DNA of 4,503 bases from a virus: UHGV virus genome UHGV-1976595; one strand, 5' to 3'. The notes beneath the pieces are model-generated. The model was not told the origin of the DNA and did not search any database. It saw nothing but the letters and a program-made list of their open reading frames with translations. Below, piece after piece: positions 196 to 4,503 of the stretch (position 1 is the stretch's first letter; the number at the start of each line of letters is the position of its first letter). Both the position numbers and the translations under genes were made by a program.

Positions 196-208
196 AGTCG
201 TTGTTTTT

Positions 209-236
209 GTTAAACTAAATATACATTATGCGCACC
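209..236 (-). other. dif-like Xer recombination site (candidate attP for XerC/XerD-mediated integration)
   Basis: The minus strand of 209-236 reads GGTGCGCATAA-TGTATA-TTTAGTTTAAC. Compared with E. coli dif (GGTGCGCATAA TGTATA TTATGTTAAAT, recalled from memory) the XerC arm matches 11/11, the central region 6/6 and the XerD arm 7/11. A conserved XerC arm with a degenerate XerD arm is the pattern described for phage and IMEX attachment sites. Confidence 0.6.
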
Positions 237-248
237 AAGGTGCGCATA
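227..248. repeat. Perfect 10-bp inverted repeat TATGCGCACC-aa-GGTGCGCATA (XerC-arm sequence duplicated in inverted orientation)
   Basis: Read directly: 227-236 is the exact reverse complement of 239-248, with a 2-nt spacer. The second copy (239-249, GGTGCGCATAC) matches the dif XerC arm at 10/11 positions in forward orientation. Confidence 0.85.
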
Positions 249-269: not shown

Positions 270-1133
270 ATGGCTTGTACCCGTCCGTTAAACGCGTACC
301 AGATGCCATCGGGGAAGATTTTTTTCACGCCGTCACGTGGCGCTAAATTCATTCAGTTGCCTTGCGGTCAGTGCATCGGTTGCCGTCTTGCCCATTCTCG
401 TGACTGGGCGACCCGCTGTGTTCATGAAGCCCACATGCACGATCACAATTGTTTTATCACCCTGACTTATTCGCCTGAGAATTTACCCGAAGGCGGAACT
501 CTCGTTCGTAAACATTTCACCGATTTTATGAAGCGTTTGCGTAAGGCTTTGTCTGTTGATGATATTTCAATTCGTTTTTTCGGCTGTGGTGAATATGGCT
601 CTAAATTAGAGCGACCGCATTATCATGCGATTATTTTTGGATATGATTTTCCGGATAAGACACTGCATAAAGCTGGAAGATTTAATTTATTTAGGTCTTC
701 GCTTCTTGAAAGATGCTGGACTTTTGGCTTTTCTGTTATTGCTGGCTTTAGCTTTGAGTCGGCTGCATATGTGGCGCGATACTGTGTTAAAAAAGTCACC
801 GGTTCCCGTTCAGAGGAGCATTATGGACATCGCCTACCCGAGTTTTCAGCTATGAGTAACAGGCCAGGAATTGGCTACGATTTTTTTATGGAGTATTACG
901 ATGACATAGTTAATTCAGATGCGTGTATTGGTCGTGGCGGTCGTCAGATAAAACCGCCCCGCTATTATGACAAGTTATTATCAGGCTGTGATTTGGAAAA
1001 GTTGCAGCAAAATAAAGAAAAGCGCCAGTTAAATGCTCAGGTATTAGACCCGTGGCGTTTGCAGGATTTAGATAAATTTAATCTGGTTAAATTCCAGCGA
1101 ATGATGAGGAAATTAGAAAATGGCTCACTCTGA
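270..1133 (+). CDS. Replication initiation protein, HUH rolling-circle endonuclease (gokushovirus VP4 / microvirus gpA-like)
   Basis: ORF 228..1133 in the supplied track. I place the start at ATG 270 (MACTRPLNAYQ...) because GGAGG at 259-263 sits 6 nt upstream, whereas ATG 228 has no Shine-Dalgarno and lies inside the dif-like motif. Motifs read in the translation: motif I FITLTY (453-470), HUH motif HYH in PHYHAIIF (618-626), and the twin-tyrosine catalytic motif YVARYCVKK (768-794, Tyr codons at 768 and 780), closely resembling the active-site region of phiX174 gpA. A Cys/His-rich segment CGQCIGC...RCVHEAHMHDHNC spans 363-452. Stop TGA 1131-1133. Confidence 0.9.
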   Translation: MACTRPLNAYQMPSGKIFFTPSRGAKFIQLPCGQCIGCRLAHSRDWATRCVHEAHMHDHNCFITLTYSPENLPEGGTLVRKHFTDFMKRLRKALSVDDISIRFFGCGEYGSKLERPHYHAIIFGYDFPDKTLHKAGRFNLFRSSLLERCWTFGFSVIAGFSFESAAYVARYCVKKVTGSRSEEHYGHRLPEFSAMSNRPGIGYDFFMEYYDDIVNSDACIGRGGRQIKPPRYYDKLLSGCDLEKLQQNKEKRQLNAQVLDPWRLQDLDKFNLVKFQRMMRKLENGSL

Positions 1134-1389: not shown

Positions 1390-1879
1390 GTTCCATACCC
1401 GCTATGACCCGCCACCGTCGCCCGGCATCGAGTTCAAAGAACCCACGATGACCCAGCAGCATTTCCGCGATGAGTGCGACATCAATAAGATTGTTGAGCG
1501 TGCGATAAGAACGGGAGACACGACCGTGTTTACCAGTACTCAACGTGCTGAATTTTACGATGCATCCGCGATTACCGATTATGTGGACGCAATGGCTTTA
1601 ATTGACGACGTTAACGACGACTTTAATAGCCTGCCGTCCGCTACTCGCGCGATGTTTGGTAATAACGTTAAACAGTACGTTGAATTCATGAGTGATCCGG
1701 CGAACTGGGATAAAGCCCGTGAGCTTGGATTGTTGAGCGGCGGAGAGGTTTCGGCGACCGAACCGAAGGTTCGCGAGTCGGAACCTGCTCCGGCGTCCCC
1801 GCGGGAGCGTTCCGGTGCTGATGTGAATAAAGCATCAAATGCGGGTTCTGAACCCGCGAAACCTGCAGACGGCTCCTGA
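1370..1879 (+). CDS. Putative internal scaffolding protein (gokushovirus VP3-like), with a low-complexity Pro/Ser/Glu/Ala-rich C-terminal tail
   Basis: ATG 1370 with GAAGGA at 1355-1360; 169 aa; stop TGA 1877-1879. An alternative internal start at ATG 1448 (MTQQHFR...) has no Shine-Dalgarno. Size and position immediately upstream of the major capsid gene fit a scaffold protein, but the assignment is by synteny and size, not by a recognised motif. Confidence 0.5.
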   Translation: MRTSKRKFHTRYDPPPSPGIEFKEPTMTQQHFRDECDINKIVERAIRTGDTTVFTSTQRAEFYDASAITDYVDAMALIDDVNDDFNSLPSATRAMFGNNVKQYVEFMSDPANWDKARELGLLSGGEVSATEPKVRESEPAPASPRERSGADVNKASNAGSEPAKPADGS

Positions 1880-1887
1880 CCCTGCAG

Positions 1888-1924
1888 CCTGGCACAGTGC
1901 CCTACTTGATGTAACTGTGCCAGG
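1888..1924. repeat. Stem-loop: 11-bp perfect inverted repeat CCTGGCACAGT / ACTGTGCCAGG with a 15-nt loop
   Basis: Read directly: 1888-1898 is the exact reverse complement of 1914-1924. Located in the VP3-VP1 intergenic region, 9 nt after the VP3 stop. Not followed by a T-run on the + strand. Confidence 0.85.
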
Positions 1925-1936
1925 TGACACCGAAAC

Positions 1937-1964
1937 TTACAGGCGGCTCCCACGAAGCCTGTAA
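1937..1964. repeat. Stem-loop: 8-bp perfect inverted repeat TTACAGGC / GCCTGTAA with a 12-nt loop
   Basis: Read directly: 1937-1944 is the reverse complement of 1957-1964. Followed by AAAAA on the + strand, so it is not a + strand intrinsic terminator. Confidence 0.8.
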
Positions 1965-1968
1965 AAAG

Positions 1969-1997
1969 GTGTCAGTTTATACAGTGGTTTGTATAGT
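1969..1997 (+). promoter_or_regulatory. Candidate sigma70-type promoter for the major capsid gene: -35 GTGTCA (1969-1974), 17-bp spacer, -10 TATAGT (1992-1997)
   Basis: Hexamers match the consensus at 4/6 and 5/6 with optimal 17-bp spacing; the predicted start is about 20 nt upstream of the VP1 ATG, followed by a G-rich Shine-Dalgarno (GAGGGGGG, 2014-2021). Pattern match only. Confidence 0.3.
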
Positions 1998-2024
1998 ATT
2001 TAAACAATTCCCTGAGGGGGGTTT

Positions 2025-3704
2025 ATGAGTAAATTCGGTCGTAAAGTACCTAGTAATGCAAAAAGTCAGCATAATTTTTCAGTAATCCCGAGTGCTAATA
2101 TTCAGCGTTCGGTCTTTAACCGTAGTTCTGGTTATAAAACCACCTTTGACGCTGGTTATTTGATTCCCGTGTTTCTGGATGAGGCTTTGCCGGGTGATAC
2201 GTTCCACCTTAAAACGAGTGTTCTCGCGCGTCTTTCCACGCCCGTGGTTCCTTTCATGGATAATCTACGTCTGGATATTCAGTATTTTTCTGTACCTTAT
2301 CGCCTCGTCTGGGATAACTGGCAGAAATTCAACGGAGAACAGAAGAACCCTGGTGATTCTACGGATTATTTGATTCCGCAGATTACAGCCCCTGCTGGCG
2401 GTTTCCCTGTTGGCTCTCTTGCCGATTATTTTGGTGTTCCTACAGGTGTCGAAGGTATCAGCGTAAGCGCCCTGCCGTTCCGCGCTTATAACCTGATTTA
2501 TAACGAGTGGTATCGTGACGAAAACCTGATTAATTCCGCCCCGCTTCCGCTTGGCGATGAGACGGAAACAGGTCTCGCAAATTTCCCGCTGCGTAAGCGT
2601 GCCAAGCGTCATGATTACTTCACAAGTGCCCTTCCGTGGCCTCAGAAAGGCGAAGGTGTTGAGATTGGTTTAGGCGTTCCGCCGTCGTACTCGTTGAATT
2701 ATCCGGAATATCCGGATGGTTTAGCGTTCTTTACGCAGTCTTATGGCGCCGGCGGCCAGACTGTTGCTGGTACGGGCTATATTGCCCGTAGTGGTCTTGA
2801 CGCCGATACAGGTCTCTATTTGAGCGGTGGCCTTCAGAATGGTATTAACTGGCCTGAATCTCCTGTTCAGGGACGTTATGACGTTATTTCCGGTTTCCTT
2901 CCGGGCAAACCTCCGGTTACTTTGGAAAAGACAGGTGGTGAAGTTGTTGACAATCTCACGATTAACTCATTGCGTCAGGCGTTCCAGCTTCAGCGCCTGC
3001 TTGAGCGTGATGCTCGCGGTGGTACGCGATACATTGAGATTATTCGCAGTCATTTTGGCGTCATTTCTCCTGATGCCCGTGTTCAGCGTCCTGAGTATCT
3101 TGGCTCTGGTTCGTTCGATATAAATATCAATCCCGTTCTTCAGAACTCTGCGACTACCGATGCCAGCCCACAAGGTAACCTCGCAGCTTATGGTGTTTCC
3201 GGTGGTGTTAACCGTGGTTTTTCACATTCTTTTGTGGAGCACTGTTTTGTCATTGGTCTTGTATCTGTCCGTGCAGATTTGACCTATCAGCAAGGCATCC
3301 CGCGCATGTTCTCCCGTCAGACCCGCTTTGATTTCTACTGGCCTGCACTGGCCCACCTGGGCGAACAGGCTATTCTTAACAAGGAGATTTATGCGCAAGG
3401 CAACGCTAAAGATGATGAAGTCTTTGGCTATCAGGAACGTTACGCGGAGTACCGCTATCGTCCATCCCAGATTACTGGTAAATTACGTTCCACAGACCCG
3501 CAATCCCTCGATGTGTGGCATTTAGCCCAGCGGTTCGACTCTCTGCCCGCATTGAATCAGGAGTTCATCGAAGAGAATCCACCGATGAGTCGTGTTCTGG
3601 CCGTTCAGGACGAGCCTCAGTTCATTCTGGATGCATTCTTTGACCTGAAATGTGTGCGGCCTATGCCAGTTTATTCAGTACCCGGTCTTATTGACCATTT
3701 TTAA
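2025..3704 (+). CDS. Major capsid protein (gokushovirus VP1 / microvirus F-like)
   Basis: 559-aa ORF. ATG 2025 follows GAGGGGGG (2014-2021); stop TAA 3702-3704. The N-terminal region (...SVIPSANIQRSVFNRSSGYKTTFDAGYLIPVFLDEALPGDTF...) matches the conserved N-terminal signature of gokushovirus major capsid proteins as I recall it from Chlamydia phage and related VP1s. Its length fits a gokushovirus VP1 with the large surface insertion. Confidence 0.92.
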   Translation: MSKFGRKVPSNAKSQHNFSVIPSANIQRSVFNRSSGYKTTFDAGYLIPVFLDEALPGDTFHLKTSVLARLSTPVVPFMDNLRLDIQYFSVPYRLVWDNWQKFNGEQKNPGDSTDYLIPQITAPAGGFPVGSLADYFGVPTGVEGISVSALPFRAYNLIYNEWYRDENLINSAPLPLGDETETGLANFPLRKRAKRHDYFTSALPWPQKGEGVEIGLGVPPSYSLNYPEYPDGLAFFTQSYGAGGQTVAGTGYIARSGLDADTGLYLSGGLQNGINWPESPVQGRYDVISGFLPGKPPVTLEKTGGEVVDNLTINSLRQAFQLQRLLERDARGGTRYIEIIRSHFGVISPDARVQRPEYLGSGSFDININPVLQNSATTDASPQGNLAAYGVSGGVNRGFSHSFVEHCFVIGLVSVRADLTYQQGIPRMFSRQTRFDFYWPALAHLGEQAILNKEIYAQGNAKDDEVFGYQERYAEYRYRPSQITGKLRSTDPQSLDVWHLAQRFDSLPALNQEFIEENPPMSRVLAVQDEPQFILDAFFDLKCVRPMPVYSVPGLIDHF

Positions 3705-3717
3705 AACCCAACTCTTT

Positions 3718-3740
3718 GGCCTCTTCGGAGGCCTTTTTTT
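3718..3740 (+). terminator. Rho-independent terminator: GGCCTC-TTCG-GAGGCC followed by TTTTTTT
   Basis: 6-bp GC-rich stem (3718-3723 / 3728-3733), UUCG tetraloop (3724-3727) and a 7-T run (3734-3740), 14 nt after the VP1 stop and immediately before the VP2 ribosome-binding site. Confidence 0.75.
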
Positions 3741-3754
3741 CATGAGGTGAAATT

Positions 3755-4503
3755 ATGTGGGGAGCAATTGCAGGTGCTGTAGGTTCCGTTGCCGGTTCTC
3801 TTCTTGGTGCCCACTCTGCCCAGCAGAACGCCGCTCAGGCGAACAAGTTAACGATGGATTTGGCCAAAAACGGTATGCAGTACCGCGTACAGGATTTGCG
3901 AAAAGCAGGTCTTAACCCGATTCTGGCCGTTAATGGTTCCGGTGGTCTTGGTTCCGTCAGTTCTTCCGGTATTCAGCAGGCTGCCCCTGCCGATTATTCT
4001 GGTGCGGTTAACTCTGCCGTTGCCGCGTTCGACGCTCTGACGAAGCGTGAGCAGCAAAAGGTTGCCCGTGAAGGCATTGAGTCTCAGATTGCGTTACAAC
4101 GTAACCAGATTGCGAATAGCGCGGCTGATGTGCGTCTTAAAACGGCTCAGGCTGACCAGGCTATCCAGAGTGCCGATAACATGCGATCGCAGTCGAATCT
4201 GATTAATCAGCAGGTTTTGACCGAGGCTTCTCGTCGTGCCAATATTGAAGCACAGACAGGCCTCAGTTCTGCGCAGCGGATTAGAACACAGTATCAAACT
4301 GTTCAGGACAAGGTTCTGGCTGATTATTTGAATACACCGACTGGTGCTCAATCACTTAAGGTTAATTATGACTCTCAAGGGAAAGGGTTTGTCGGACAAG
4401 GTAATGCGATTGGTAGTTGGTTACGTCGTATTTCAGGTCTTGATGGCTTTGGCTTTCGCGATTCTAATAGTGCTAAGTCCGTAAACCAAAGGGGGGATTC
4501 TTC
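3755..4503 (+). CDS. DNA pilot / minor capsid protein (gokushovirus VP2-like), 3'-partial in this window
   Basis: ATG 3755 preceded by GAGGTGA (3744-3750). The frame stays open to the window end: 249 codons plus 2 nt by hand translation. It is absent from the supplied ORF track because it has no in-window stop. The N-terminus MWGAIAGAVGSVAGSLLGA is Gly/Ala-rich and hydrophobic, followed by ...RKAGLNPILA... and a long Gln/Ala-rich, probably helical, region, as in microvirus pilot proteins. If the genome is circular the frame continues into positions 1-34 and stops at TAA 32-34, giving 260 aa. Confidence 0.85.
   Translation, partial: MWGAIAGAVGSVAGSLLGAHSAQQNAAQANKLTMDLAKNGMQYRVQDLRKAGLNPILAVNGSGGLGSVSSSGIQQAAPADYSGAVNSAVAAFDALTKREQQKVAREGIESQIALQRNQIANSAADVRLKTAQADQAIQSADNMRSQSNLINQQVLTEASRRANIEAQTGLSSAQRIRTQYQTVQDKVLADYLNTPTGAQSLKVNYDSQGKGFVGQGNAIGSWLRRISGLDGFGFRDSNSAKSVNQRGDS

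What the first reader, a model, noticed from the sequence alone, without database searches (positions are those of the whole stretch)
1888..1964. Two stable stem-loops in the VP3-VP1 intergenic region
An 11-bp and an 8-bp perfect inverted repeat sit between the scaffold-like gene and the capsid gene. Neither is followed by a T-run on the coding strand, so they are not classical + strand terminators. In phiX174 and G4-type microviruses, intergenic hairpins serve as primosome or primase recognition sites for complementary-strand synthesis and as mRNA-stabilising structures. By analogy these could be the complementary-strand origin of this ssDNA genome or a processing and stability element separating early and capsid transcripts.
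Basis: partly seen in the sequence, partly recalled or inferred. Interest (0 to 1): 0.45.

Follow-up and report, generated by a model that had tools for sequence, protein, structure and literature searches.

The report
Probable replication origin hairpin of gokushoviruses
The larger of the two hairpins is a stem-loop conserved across gokushovirus-type ssDNA phages, and its loop carries the cutting-site sequence of the phiX174 replication origin. It is therefore most likely where this phage's own replication protein nicks the DNA to start copying; the smaller hairpin is a local add-on found only in the E. coli relatives.

Summary
Both inverted repeats are real. HP1 is 1888-1898/1914-1924 (11 bp) and HP2 is 1937-1944/1957-1964 (8 bp). 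They sit in a run of five abutting stems between VP3 and VP1.

HP1 is far beyond chance; HP2 alone is not. HP1 plus the flanking TGACACC is the most conserved non-coding element of gokushovirus-like microviruses:
- It occurs in about 72 of 73 genomes picked only by Rep similarity.
- It also occurs in Chp2, phiCPAR39, SpV4 and phiMH2K.
- 10 of its 11 stem pairs covary.
- The invariant loop core CTTGAT equals the phiX174 gpA cleavage site CAACTTG^ATA.

VP4 is a gpA homologue with the same YVA(K/R)Y motif. In at least 8 genomes the hairpin is inverted relative to all genes, and in 7 of them the T-over-A bias at four-fold sites flips with it. The element therefore acts on DNA and marks one strand.

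Best reading: HP1 is the viral-strand rolling-circle origin, nicked by VP4 at G1908^A1909.

HP2 occurs only in enterogokushoviruses. It is nested inside a second stem (TGACACC/GGTGTCA) and is kept by two alternative pairings. Its role is open, and complementary-strand priming remains possible. Nothing here is experimentally shown.

The parts
1863..1887 (+). HP0: 6-bp stem CTGCAG/CTGCAG (1863-1868 with 1882-1887) and a 13-nt loop. It spans the VP3 stop codon (1877-1879) and abuts HP1.
   Evidence: Folded. Among 10 enterogokushovirus sequences it is 100% paired, with 2 pairs changed on both sides (CTGAAG/CTTCAG, ATGAAG/CTTCAT). A perfect hairpin of at least 5 bp lies within 36 nt upstream of HP1 in 71% of 169 elements, against 28% of control windows.
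1888..1924 (+). HP1: 11-bp perfect stem (1888-1898 / 1914-1924) with the 15-nt loop GCCCTACTTGATGTA (1899-1913). Proposed nick-site hairpin of the viral-strand origin.
   Evidence: z = -4.99. Model R1 scores 68.4 bits, E 1e-16. Covariation on 94 sequences: 10 of 11 pairs changed on both sides, 80% of cells paired against 25-42% when slid, 0 of 500 shuffles as good.
1904..1910 (+). ACTTGAT, the core shared with the phiX174 origin CAACTTG^ATA. Predicted VP4 cleavage lies between G1908 and A1909.
   Evidence: The phiX174 rep_origin is annotated at 4306 within ccccCAACTTGATATTAATAAC. ACTTGAT occurs once in the window on both strands. C, T, G and T of CTTGAT are invariant, and the second T and the A are at least 90% conserved, in alignment A2. 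The cleavage position itself is inferred.
1925..1931 (+). TGACACC, a conserved motif immediately 3' of HP1. Proposed Rep-binding part of the origin; it is also the 5' arm of stem B.
   Evidence: T and G are invariant and A, C, A at least 90% conserved in A2. The motif is present even where no complementary arm follows. The binding role is inferred.
1925..1974 (+). Stem B: TGACACC (1925-1931) paired with GGTGTCA (1968-1974), enclosing HP2.
   Evidence: z = -3.48. Invariant in 10 enterogokushoviruses. A perfect complement of at least 6 nt within 70 nt downstream occurs in 23 of 161 distinct elements, against 2 of 161 with shuffled tails.
1937..1964 (+). HP2: 8-bp stem TTACAGGC/GCCTGTAA with the 12-nt loop GGCTCCCACGAA. 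A lineage-specific insert in the loop of stem B.
   Evidence: Found only in enterogokushoviruses. The inner 4 bp are invariant; the outer 4 bp are kept in two alternative registers, with one T:A to C:G compensatory pair.
1969..1997 (+). Promoter-like site GTGTCA-17 nt-TATAGT upstream of VP1. It overlaps the 3' arm of stem B and HP3 (1978-1983/1990-1995).
   Evidence: Consensus scan, 9 of 12 matches. The region is 97% conserved among 11 enterogokushoviruses. Function is not shown.
270..1133 (+). VP4, an HUH rolling-circle Rep. Proposed trans-acting nuclease for HP1.
   Evidence: Pfam PF23343 REP_ORF2-G2P, E 5.6e-21. hhalign to phiX174 gpA gives probability 95%, E 2.4e-8, over the TLTY and HYHA motifs. 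YVARYCVKK (Y167, Y171) corresponds to gpA YVAKYVNKK (Y343, Y347).

Best explanation
HP1 (1888-1924) together with the adjoining TGACACC (1925-1931) is the viral-strand (double-strand) origin of rolling-circle replication of this enterogokushovirus. The proposed steps are:
1. In the supercoiled replicative form the inverted repeat extrudes, or is melted by Rep binding to the stem and the TGACACC flank. This exposes the loop as single-stranded DNA.
2. VP4, a two-tyrosine HUH nuclease homologous to phiX174 gpA, cleaves the loop at CTTG^AT (G1908^A1909) and becomes linked to the 5' end.
3. The host polymerase extends the 3'-OH and displaces the hairpin-bearing strand.
4. After one round the regenerated site is cut and joined by the second tyrosine, releasing a circular strand for packaging.

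The strand that carries the hairpin is therefore the packaged strand.

HP2 is not part of this universal core. It is an enterogokushovirus-specific hairpin inserted in the loop of a second, more widespread stem (TGACACC/GGTGTCA). It most likely serves as an accessory to the origin region, for example priming of the complementary strand in enterobacterial hosts.

Shown here: the structure, its conservation and covariation, the sequence identity of the loop core with the phiX174 cleavage site, the homology of the Rep, and the strand linkage. Inferred: cleavage by VP4 at this site, Rep binding to TGACACC, and any role of HP2.
For: 1. Extreme conservation in otherwise diverged genomes. Positions 1888-1931 match at 95.5-97.8% in an Eel River pequenovirus and in bajarodmic viruses, where nothing else reaches megablast.
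2. Prevalence. The loop 14-mer occurs in more than 119 IMG/VR contigs; 90 of 132 occurrences have a stem of at least 6 bp, and 86 of those are in contigs under 7 kb. In 73 genomes chosen only by VP4 similarity, about 63 carry it within 3 mismatches, and model R1 finds it in 8 more.
3. Covariation. 10 of 11 pairs have changes on both sides, with 0 of 500 shuffles as good. The Chp2 and phiCPAR39 stems differ at many paired positions under an identical loop.
4. Presence in cultured gokushoviruses of four very different hosts, all with TACTTG(A/T)T in the loop: Chp2 and phiCPAR39 (Chlamydia), SpV4 (Spiroplasma), phiMH2K (Bdellovibrio, R1 25.7 bits, E 4e-5).
5. The invariant core CTTGAT equals the annotated phiX174 viral-strand origin CAACTTG^ATA. 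ACTTGAT is unique in the window. The same heptamer CTTGATA lies upstream of repA in pC194.
6. VP4 is homologous to gpA and has the same two-tyrosine motif.
7. Position. The element is usually directly upstream of (VP8-)VP4, which is the usual place of a dso in rolling-circle replicons (PMC5703833).
8. Strand linkage. Where the hairpin is on the gene strand (n = 134), four-fold sites on the coding strand are T 48% and A 20%. Where it is on the opposite strand (n = 8), they are T 12% and A 34%. Mann-Whitney p = 1.5e-5.
Against: - No experiment. Cleavage, binding and replication dependence are all inferred.
- Similarity to the phiX174 origin is limited to the 7-8 nt core. The full 30-nt ungapped match (16 of 30) is equalled or exceeded by seven chance 30-mers elsewhere in the window.
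- The phiX174 origin is not hairpin-borne and lies inside gene A, so the architecture differs.
- A 15-nt loop on an 11-bp stem is costly to extrude as a cruciform.
- The strand-asymmetry result is equally predicted by a complementary-strand origin. It also has exceptions: L041, and 4 of 134 same-strand genomes.
- No hairpin was recognised in Chp1.
- Part of the sample was selected by the loop sequence itself, which inflates loop conservation in alignment A2.
- Older gokushovirus papers could not be read.
Confidence: 0.62

Rival explanations
1. The hairpin cluster (HP0-HP1-B/HP2) is the complementary-strand origin. It folds on the incoming single-stranded genome and is recognised by host priming machinery (PriA primosome, DnaG or RNA polymerase), as in phiX174, G4 or f1. 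The viral-strand nick site lies elsewhere.
For: - Strong single-strand folding of the whole region, z = -4.8.
- It is orientation-locked to the T-rich strand, which such an origin also requires.
- It is the only structured non-coding element in many compact relatives.
- Olo Ndela et al. proposed this role for conserved hairpins next to Rep in tiny microviruses (PMC9865509).
- HP2 is host-lineage specific.
Against: - The HP1 loop sequence is conserved among phages of Chlamydia, Spiroplasma, Bdellovibrio and Enterobacteria. Their priming systems differ, whereas the phage Rep is the shared factor.
- The invariant core equals the gpA cleavage site.
- No other ACTTGAT exists in the genome to serve as a nick site.
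Confidence: 0.17
2. The region is a combined origin. HP1 is the Rep nick site, and the neighbouring stems (HP0, B with HP2) provide the priming site for the complementary strand, so both origins sit in one about 110-nt block.
For: - All the evidence for the best explanation applies.
- The stems abut without spacers.
- HP0-type and B-type stems are enriched next to HP1.
- The intergenic region is as conserved as coding sequence.
- Many relatives have almost no other non-coding DNA.
Against: - HP0 and B are not universal: 71% and about 14% of elements.
- HP2 is absent from the nearest outgroups.
- No sequence feature ties any of these stems to a known priming signal.
Confidence: 0.3
3. The hairpins act in RNA, as a processing, stability or termination element between the early (VP4-VP5-VP3) and capsid (VP1) transcripts.
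For: - The region folds equally well as RNA, -59.3 kcal/mol, z = -4.4.
- It lies at the 3' end of VP3, and a promoter-like site follows.
Against: - There is no T-run and no Rfam family match.
- In at least 8 genomes the element is antisense to all genes with its sequence preserved.
- Its position relative to genes differs (VP3|VP1, VP3|VP4, VP2|VP4) while the sequence stays constant.
Confidence: 0.05
4. HP2 has no function of its own. It is a chance 8-bp repeat carried along in a conserved intergenic region.
For: - By my own arithmetic, about 4 such 8-bp repeats are expected per genome, and 3 are seen.
- Its z is only -2.87.
- It is absent outside enterogokushoviruses.
- mar4 carries an uncompensated C-A mismatch.
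Against: All 10 distinct enterogokushovirus sequences keep a hairpin here, by two different pairing registers. One T:A to C:G double change occurs, and the loop is nearly invariant.
Confidence: 0.25

Closest known systems
phiX174 (Bullavirinae) viral-strand origin, the 30-nt gpA site CAACTTG^ATATTAATAACACTATAGACCAC
   Same: - Same virus family.
- Homologous two-tyrosine Rep.
- Identical core ACTTGAT spanning the annotated cleavage position.
- Single copy on the gene-sense strand.
   Different: - The phiX174 site lies inside gene A and is not in a hairpin; here it sits in the loop of a covarying intergenic stem.
- Outside the core, the 30-nt similarity is not above chance.
- The conserved 3' flank here is TGACACC.
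Double-strand origins of pC194/pUB110-family rolling-circle plasmids (nick sequence CTTG^ATA; nick position from my own knowledge of the literature)
   Same: - Same heptamer CTTGATA upstream of rep on the rep strand.
- The Rep has HUH-type chemistry.
- The dso lies upstream of rep (PMC5703833).
   Different: These are plasmid Reps of another Pfam family (Rep_1) with one catalytic Tyr plus Glu. The conserved hairpin and TGACACC architecture was not seen there.
Stem-loop origins of CRESS-DNA viruses (geminivirus and circovirus nonanucleotide) and of pT181 and pMV158 plasmids
   Same: [quoted passage not shown]
- A Rep-recognition sequence lies beside it.
- The element defines the displaced or packaged strand (PMC5703833, for the plasmids).
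   Different: Unrelated loop sequences (TAATATT^AC type) and different Rep families. Iterons are direct repeats there; here there is a single TGACACC or an inverted pair.
Complementary-strand origins of phiX174 (PriA n' site hairpin) and G4 (primase hairpins)
   Same: Intergenic hairpins on the packaged strand of a microvirus.
   Different: Those are recognised by host proteins and are not conserved between phage groups. HP1 is conserved across hosts and carries the Rep cleavage core. Only HP2 has the lineage-specific distribution expected of such a site.
Conserved hairpins between Cap and Rep in roodoodoo- and reekeekeeviruses (Olo Ndela et al. 2022, PMC9865509)
   Same: Intergenic hairpins next to Rep in small microviruses, with a conserved loop and compensatory stem changes. 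Function is unassigned.
   Different: These are different clades. Their sequences were not compared here, and the authors did not link them to the gpA cleavage sequence.

Membership tests
Rolling-circle viral-strand (double-strand) origin served by an HUH Rep | A cognate HUH Rep with catalytic tyrosine(s) is encoded by the same replicon | tested here: met
   VP4 matches PF23343. hhalign to gpA gives 95% probability. The YVARY motif is present.
Rolling-circle viral-strand (double-strand) origin served by an HUH Rep | A short conserved nick sequence matching that cut by homologous Reps | tested here: met
   ACTTGAT at 1904-1910 equals the phiX174 CAACTTG^ATA core. CTTGAT is invariant or at least 90% conserved across 94 elements.
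Rolling-circle viral-strand (double-strand) origin served by an HUH Rep | The nick sequence is exposed as single strand (hairpin loop or easily melted DNA) with an adjacent Rep-binding sequence | tested here: inconclusive
   The loop position and the covarying stem are shown. The conserved TGACACC flank is shown. Binding and extrusion were not tested.
Rolling-circle viral-strand (double-strand) origin served by an HUH Rep | One copy per genome, on the strand that is displaced and packaged | tested here: met
   There is one strong R1 match in the window. The hairpin lies on the deposited gene-sense strand in Chp2, SpV4, phiMH2K and phiCPAR39; that this is the strand those phages package is my own knowledge of the family, not tested here. 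The four-fold-site T/A bias follows hairpin orientation, which is indirect evidence.
Rolling-circle viral-strand (double-strand) origin served by an HUH Rep | Rep cleaves at the site and replication depends on it | not testable with these tools
   This needs a nicking assay, nick mapping and mutagenesis.
phiX174-type 30-nt origin (strict membership) | The conserved 30-nt sequence inside the Rep gene, without a hairpin | tested here: not met
   The element is intergenic and hairpin-borne. A 16 of 30 identity is not above chance. It works like the phiX174 origin but is not a member of that sequence family.
Complementary-strand origin (phiX174 n' site, G4 oric, f1 minus origin) | A stable hairpin or hairpins on the packaged single strand in non-coding DNA | tested here: met
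Complementary-strand origin (phiX174 n' site, G4 oric, f1 minus origin) | Recognition by host priming proteins, hence host-lineage-specific sequence | tested here: inconclusive
   For HP1 this is not met: it is conserved across four host groups. For HP2 it is met: the sequence is restricted to enterogokushoviruses. Recognition itself is not testable here.
Intrinsic (rho-independent) terminator | A G+C-rich stem followed by a T-run | tested here: not met
   No site is reported in 1880-2024 on either strand. HP1 is followed by GTGACACC and HP2 by AAAAAGG.
Described structured RNA family (Rfam 15) | A covariance-model match | tested here: not met
   No match in 1856-2024, even at E up to 10.

The most novel reading that the evidence does not exclude
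The hairpin is the strand-determining origin of gokushovirus-like phages, so its orientation tells which strand is packaged. In at least five lineages (L046/L055, L127/L140, L117, L139, L085) it is inverted relative to every gene, and the T-over-A bias at four-fold sites is inverted with it. These would be microviruses that package the strand antisense to all their genes, that is, negative-sense Microviridae. As far as I know, none has been described.
Probability: 0.4. Interest if true: 0.75.

Novelty: new member of a known kind. Interest (0 to 1): 0.58.

Why it matters
- The replication origin of the Gokushovirinae, the most abundant and widespread microviruses, is not annotated in any gokushovirus record I opened. 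It is also not mentioned in the recent genomics papers I could search.
- A 44-nt element with a defined predicted cleavage site makes the question directly testable in the culturable EC6098/E. coli system.
- It gives a marker (model R1, or the pattern CAG-N(3-5)-(T/C)ACTTG(A/T)T...CTG...TGACAC) for orienting and circularising metagenomic microvirus genomes.
- It would allow origin-bearing plasmids to be built for packaging.
- It provides a sequence-only way to call the packaged strand, which points to antisense-packaged microviruses.

Tried and rejected
- **Rfam scan of the whole window at E up to 10:** nothing in the intergenic region.
- **Terminator reading:** rejected, because there is no T-run.
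- **Extended homology to the 30-nt phiX174 origin, including a GACACC/GACCAC register match:** rejected as evidence. Seven other 30-mers in the window reach 16-17 of 30.
- **TGACACC as a -35 box of a general promoter:** rejected. In many relatives the next start codon follows within about 20-30 nt, leaving no room for a -10 box and a transcript start (read by eye).
- **Horizontal transfer or contamination as the reason for the 97% match to unrelated microviruses:** rejected. Stems covary across many genomes, and the element is present in Sanger-era isolates and in E. coli chromosomes.
- **HP2 as a host-derived or widespread repeat:** rejected. It is found only in 7 of 5,426 E. coli genomes, all of them the prophages, and in EC6098 and mar4.
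- **Chp1:** no convincing hairpin found.
- **Literature:** sequence-string searches returned only primer matches. The original Chp2, phiMH2K and SpV4 papers are not held, so an earlier description there cannot be excluded.
- **Independent origin of the inverted genomes:** not resolved. VP4 identities are all near 50-56%.

Full report
**What the window is.** The 4,503-nt window is a complete circular genome of an Enterogokushovirus (Microviridae, Gokushovirinae).
- It is 91.7% identical to Escherichia phage EC6098 over 90% of its length.
- It is 87-90% identical to prophages in 7 of 5,426 complete E. coli genomes.
- Genes: a VP8-like basic ORF at 37-155; VP4 Rep at 270-1133 (PF23343); VP5 at 1120-1389; VP3 scaffold at 1370-1879 (Chlamy_scaf); VP1 capsid at 2025-3704 (Phage_F); VP2 from 3755 across the window end.
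- The phage-type dif motif annotated in EC6098 aligns to 208-235.

**The observation.** Both perfect inverted repeats exist at the stated coordinates.
- HP1 is 1888-1898/1914-1924, 11 bp with a 15-nt loop.
- HP2 is 1937-1944/1957-1964, 8 bp with a 12-nt loop.
- No stem-plus-T-run site lies in the intergenic region on either strand.
- HP1 is well beyond chance (z = -4.99, 0 of 200 shuffles).
- HP2 alone is not (z = -2.87, 3 of 200 shuffles). Three 8-bp perfect repeats occur in the window.

The single strand from 1856 to 2000 folds into five directly abutting stems (-31.8 kcal/mol, z = -4.83):
- HP0, 1863-1868/1882-1887, spanning the VP3 stop codon.
- HP1.
- Stem B, TGACACC 1925-1931 with GGTGTCA 1968-1974, which encloses HP2.
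- HP3, 1978-1983/1990-1995.

**HP1 is a family-wide element.**
- Megablast of the whole genome against phage records gave an unexpected result. Positions 1888-1931 alone match at 95.5-97.8% in an Eel River basin pequenovirus and two bajarodmic viruses, which otherwise share no detectable nucleotide similarity. In those genomes the element lies upstream of the Rep gene, not between VP3 and VP1.
Of 132 occurrences, 90 are flanked by a stem of at least 6 bp, and 86 of those lie in microvirus-sized contigs.
- To remove selection by the motif, I fetched 80 loci using only an alignment of VP4 proteins. Of the 73 new genomes, about 63 carry the hairpin within 3 loop mismatches.
- A covariance model (R1, built from 94 distinct elements) finds it in eight of the remainder at E from 9e-12 to 0.012. 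One genome is left without a match.
- On the 94-sequence alignment, 10 of 11 stem pairs show changes on both sides. 80% of cells are paired, against 25-42% when the partner is slid. No shuffle out of 500 reaches the observed score.
- The loop core and the 3' flank TGACACC are conserved in sequence. C, T, G and T of CTTGAT are invariant and the other two positions are at least 90% conserved. Part of this sample was chosen by the loop sequence.

**Cultured gokushoviruses have it too**:
- Chp2: ctagcgtataacag-tCTACTTGATc-tgttatacgctag-gtgatagc, between VP3 and ORF8/Rep.
- phiCPAR39: the same loop on a stem that differs at many paired positions.
- SpV4: ggggcatatat-TACTTGTT-ataatatgcccc-attgacgac.
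- phiMH2K: gttcggctac-ggacccTACTTGTTgtaa-gtagccgaac; R1 scores 25.7 bits, E 4e-5.
- No convincing copy was seen in Chp1.
- None of these records annotates an origin.

**What the loop sequence is.**
- The phiX174 RefSeq record annotates the origin of viral-strand synthesis at nucleotide 4306, inside ccccCAACTTGATATTAATAAC. Cleavage is therefore CAACTTG^ATA.
- The invariant gokushovirus core ACTTG(A/T)T is this sequence. In the window ACTTGAT occurs once on either strand, at 1904-1910. This predicts cleavage between G1908 and A1909.
- VP4 is homologous to phiX174 gpA (hhalign probability 95%, E 2.4e-8, covering the TLTY and HYHA motifs). It has the same catalytic block: YVARYCVKK against gpA YVAKYVNKK, Y343/Y347.
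- The heptamer CTTGATA is also present upstream of repA in pC194. That it is the nick sequence of the pC194 plasmid family is from my own knowledge.
- The similarity must not be overstated. The full 30-nt ungapped match to the phiX174 origin is 16 of 30. Seven other 30-mers in the window reach 16 or 17. Only the core counts.

**The element acts on DNA and marks a strand.**
- In most genomes the order is element, (VP8), VP4, VP5, VP1, VP2, VP3. In the enterogokushovirus-type order the element lies between VP3 and VP1. In bajarodmic virus it lies between VP2 and VP4.
- In at least eight genomes the element is on the strand opposite to all genes, in the same intergenic region: L041, L046, L055, L085, L117, L127, L139, L140. 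R1 scores there are 40-60 bits. This argues against a role in mRNA.
- I then asked whether base composition follows the hairpin. At four-fold degenerate sites of VP1 plus VP4, on the coding strand:

| Hairpin relative to genes | Genomes | T | A |
|---|---|---|---|
| Same strand | 134 | 48% | 20% |
| Opposite strand | 8 | 12% | 34% |

- Seven of the eight opposite-strand genomes are reversed. Mann-Whitney p = 1.5e-5.
- The hairpin strand is thus the T-rich strand whichever way the genes point. This is what one expects if it is the strand that spends time single-stranded and packaged.
- Exceptions exist: L041, and 4 of the 134 same-strand genomes.
- The inverted genomes form at least five groups at no more than 56% VP4 identity, but their independence is unresolved.

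**Why viral-strand rather than complementary-strand origin.** Both kinds of origin must sit on the packaged strand, so the asymmetry test does not separate them. Four points do:
- The identity of the conserved core with a Rep cleavage site.
- Conservation across phages whose hosts (Chlamydia, Spiroplasma, Bdellovibrio, Enterobacteria) have very different priming systems but which all encode the same Rep.
- The absence of any other ACTTGAT in the genome.
- The usual position just upstream of the Rep gene, typical of double-strand origins (PMC5703833).

The closest published observation I found is that of Olo Ndela et al. They describe conserved, covarying hairpins next to Rep in tiny microviruses and tentatively suggest negative-strand initiation, while saying it cannot be certified (PMC9865509).

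**HP2 and the other stems.**
- HP2 occurs only in enterogokushoviruses: the window, EC6098, mar4, the E. coli prophages and three metagenomic contigs.
- It is absent from the nearest outgroups, namely an Intestinirhabdus alba prophage and L125/L126 with 66-69% VP4 identity.
- Among 10 distinct sequences the inner four pairs and the loop are essentially invariant. The outer four pairs exist in two alternative registers: TTACAGGC/GCCTGTAA, or (T/C)TCA-c-AGGC/GCCT-TGA(A/G). There is one T:A to C:G double change. This is modest evidence that a hairpin is selected.
- Stem B is more widespread. A perfect complement of at least 6 nt to the TGACACC motif follows within 70 nt in 23 of 161 distinct elements, against 2 of 161 with shuffled tails.
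- The motif itself is conserved even without a partner, so it is probably read as sequence, most simply by Rep.
- An HP0-type hairpin precedes HP1 in 71% of elements, against 28% of control windows. It shows two compensatory pairs within the enterogokushoviruses.
- The whole intergenic region is as conserved as the flanking genes among 11 enterogokushoviruses. Positions 1906-1935 are invariant and 1936-1995 are 94-97% identical, whereas the VP3 C-terminus just upstream is the most variable stretch.
- A promoter-like site (GTGTCA-17-TATAGT, 1969-1997) overlaps the 3' arm of stem B and HP3.

**Verdict.**
- For HP1 the better-supported function is the viral-strand rolling-circle origin nicked by VP4 (confidence about 0.6). 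A combined origin is a compatible variant. A pure complementary-strand origin is the main rival.
- HP2 is a lineage-specific accessory whose function is open.
- As a kind of system this is a known one, an HUH-Rep origin with the nick site in a hairpin loop. However, I could not find it described for gokushoviruses in the searchable literature, and older papers could not be read.
- No step of the mechanism has been tested experimentally.

Noticed in passing
L046, L055, L085, L117 (= L172), L127, L139, L140 (and L041 as an exception); whole contigs: These are gokushovirus-like genomes in which the origin-type hairpin lies on the strand opposite to all genes. In 7 of 8, the T-over-A bias at four-fold sites is reversed as well (coding strand T 12%, A 34%, against T 48%, A 20% in 134 ordinary genomes; p = 1.5e-5). 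This suggests microviruses that package the antisense strand.
   Followed up: partly
window 208-248: A phage-type dif motif (TGTTAAACTAAATATACATTATGCGCAC, 208-235) aligns to the dif-motif annotated in EC6098 and to the host dif at the E. coli E9 prophage junction. It overlaps a 10-bp perfect palindrome, TATGCGCACC/GGTGCGCATA (227-248), and the alternative start of the VP4 ORF. This is the XerCD integration site of this phage group (PMC7062461).
   Followed up: partly
window 3718-3743: A textbook intrinsic terminator, GGCCTCTTCGGAGGCC followed by TTTTTTT, lies directly after the VP1 stop and before VP2. It is the only strong terminator-like site in the genome.
   Followed up: no
window 1789-1879: The C-terminal end of VP3, just upstream of the origin region, is the most variable stretch among enterogokushoviruses (54-78% column identity). 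The VP3 stop is shifted relative to EC6098: there, TGA sits at the position of window TGC 1864-1866, and the window reads on to 1877-1879, inside the HP0 loop.
   Followed up: no
L032, L040, L055, L063, L100, L118, L214, L217 and others: Several metagenomic contigs longer than one genome carry two non-identical copies of the hairpin about one genome length apart. They look like head-to-tail joins of two related variants or partial duplications. I did not determine whether these are assembly artefacts or real multimers or defective genomes with junctions near the origin.
   Followed up: no
window 1963-2002, minus strand: Because GGTGTCA is the complement of TGACACC, the minus strand shows a weak mirror image of the origin layout: hairpin TATACA/TGTATA, then AAC, then TGACACC. 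R1 scores it 15.3 bits, E 0.03. Its loop lacks CTTGAT, so the intergenic region is a loose large palindrome centred on HP2.
   Followed up: no
L154, L157, L160, L177, L181, L136, L149 versus L158, L169, L175, L176, L183, L187: Closely related genomes with identical flanks differ in the loop core, CTAGAT against CTTGAT. SpV4, phiMH2K and several contigs have CTTGTT. The positions two before and one after the predicted cut therefore tolerate change, which could be used to look for co-variation with Rep.
   Followed up: no
L207 (Intestinirhabdus alba NZ_WMJZ01000007.1, element at 6361-6411): A gokushovirus prophage with the same HP1 3' half and TGACACC lies in a genus other than Escherichia. It lacks HP2 and the GGTGTCA arm.
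   Followed up: no
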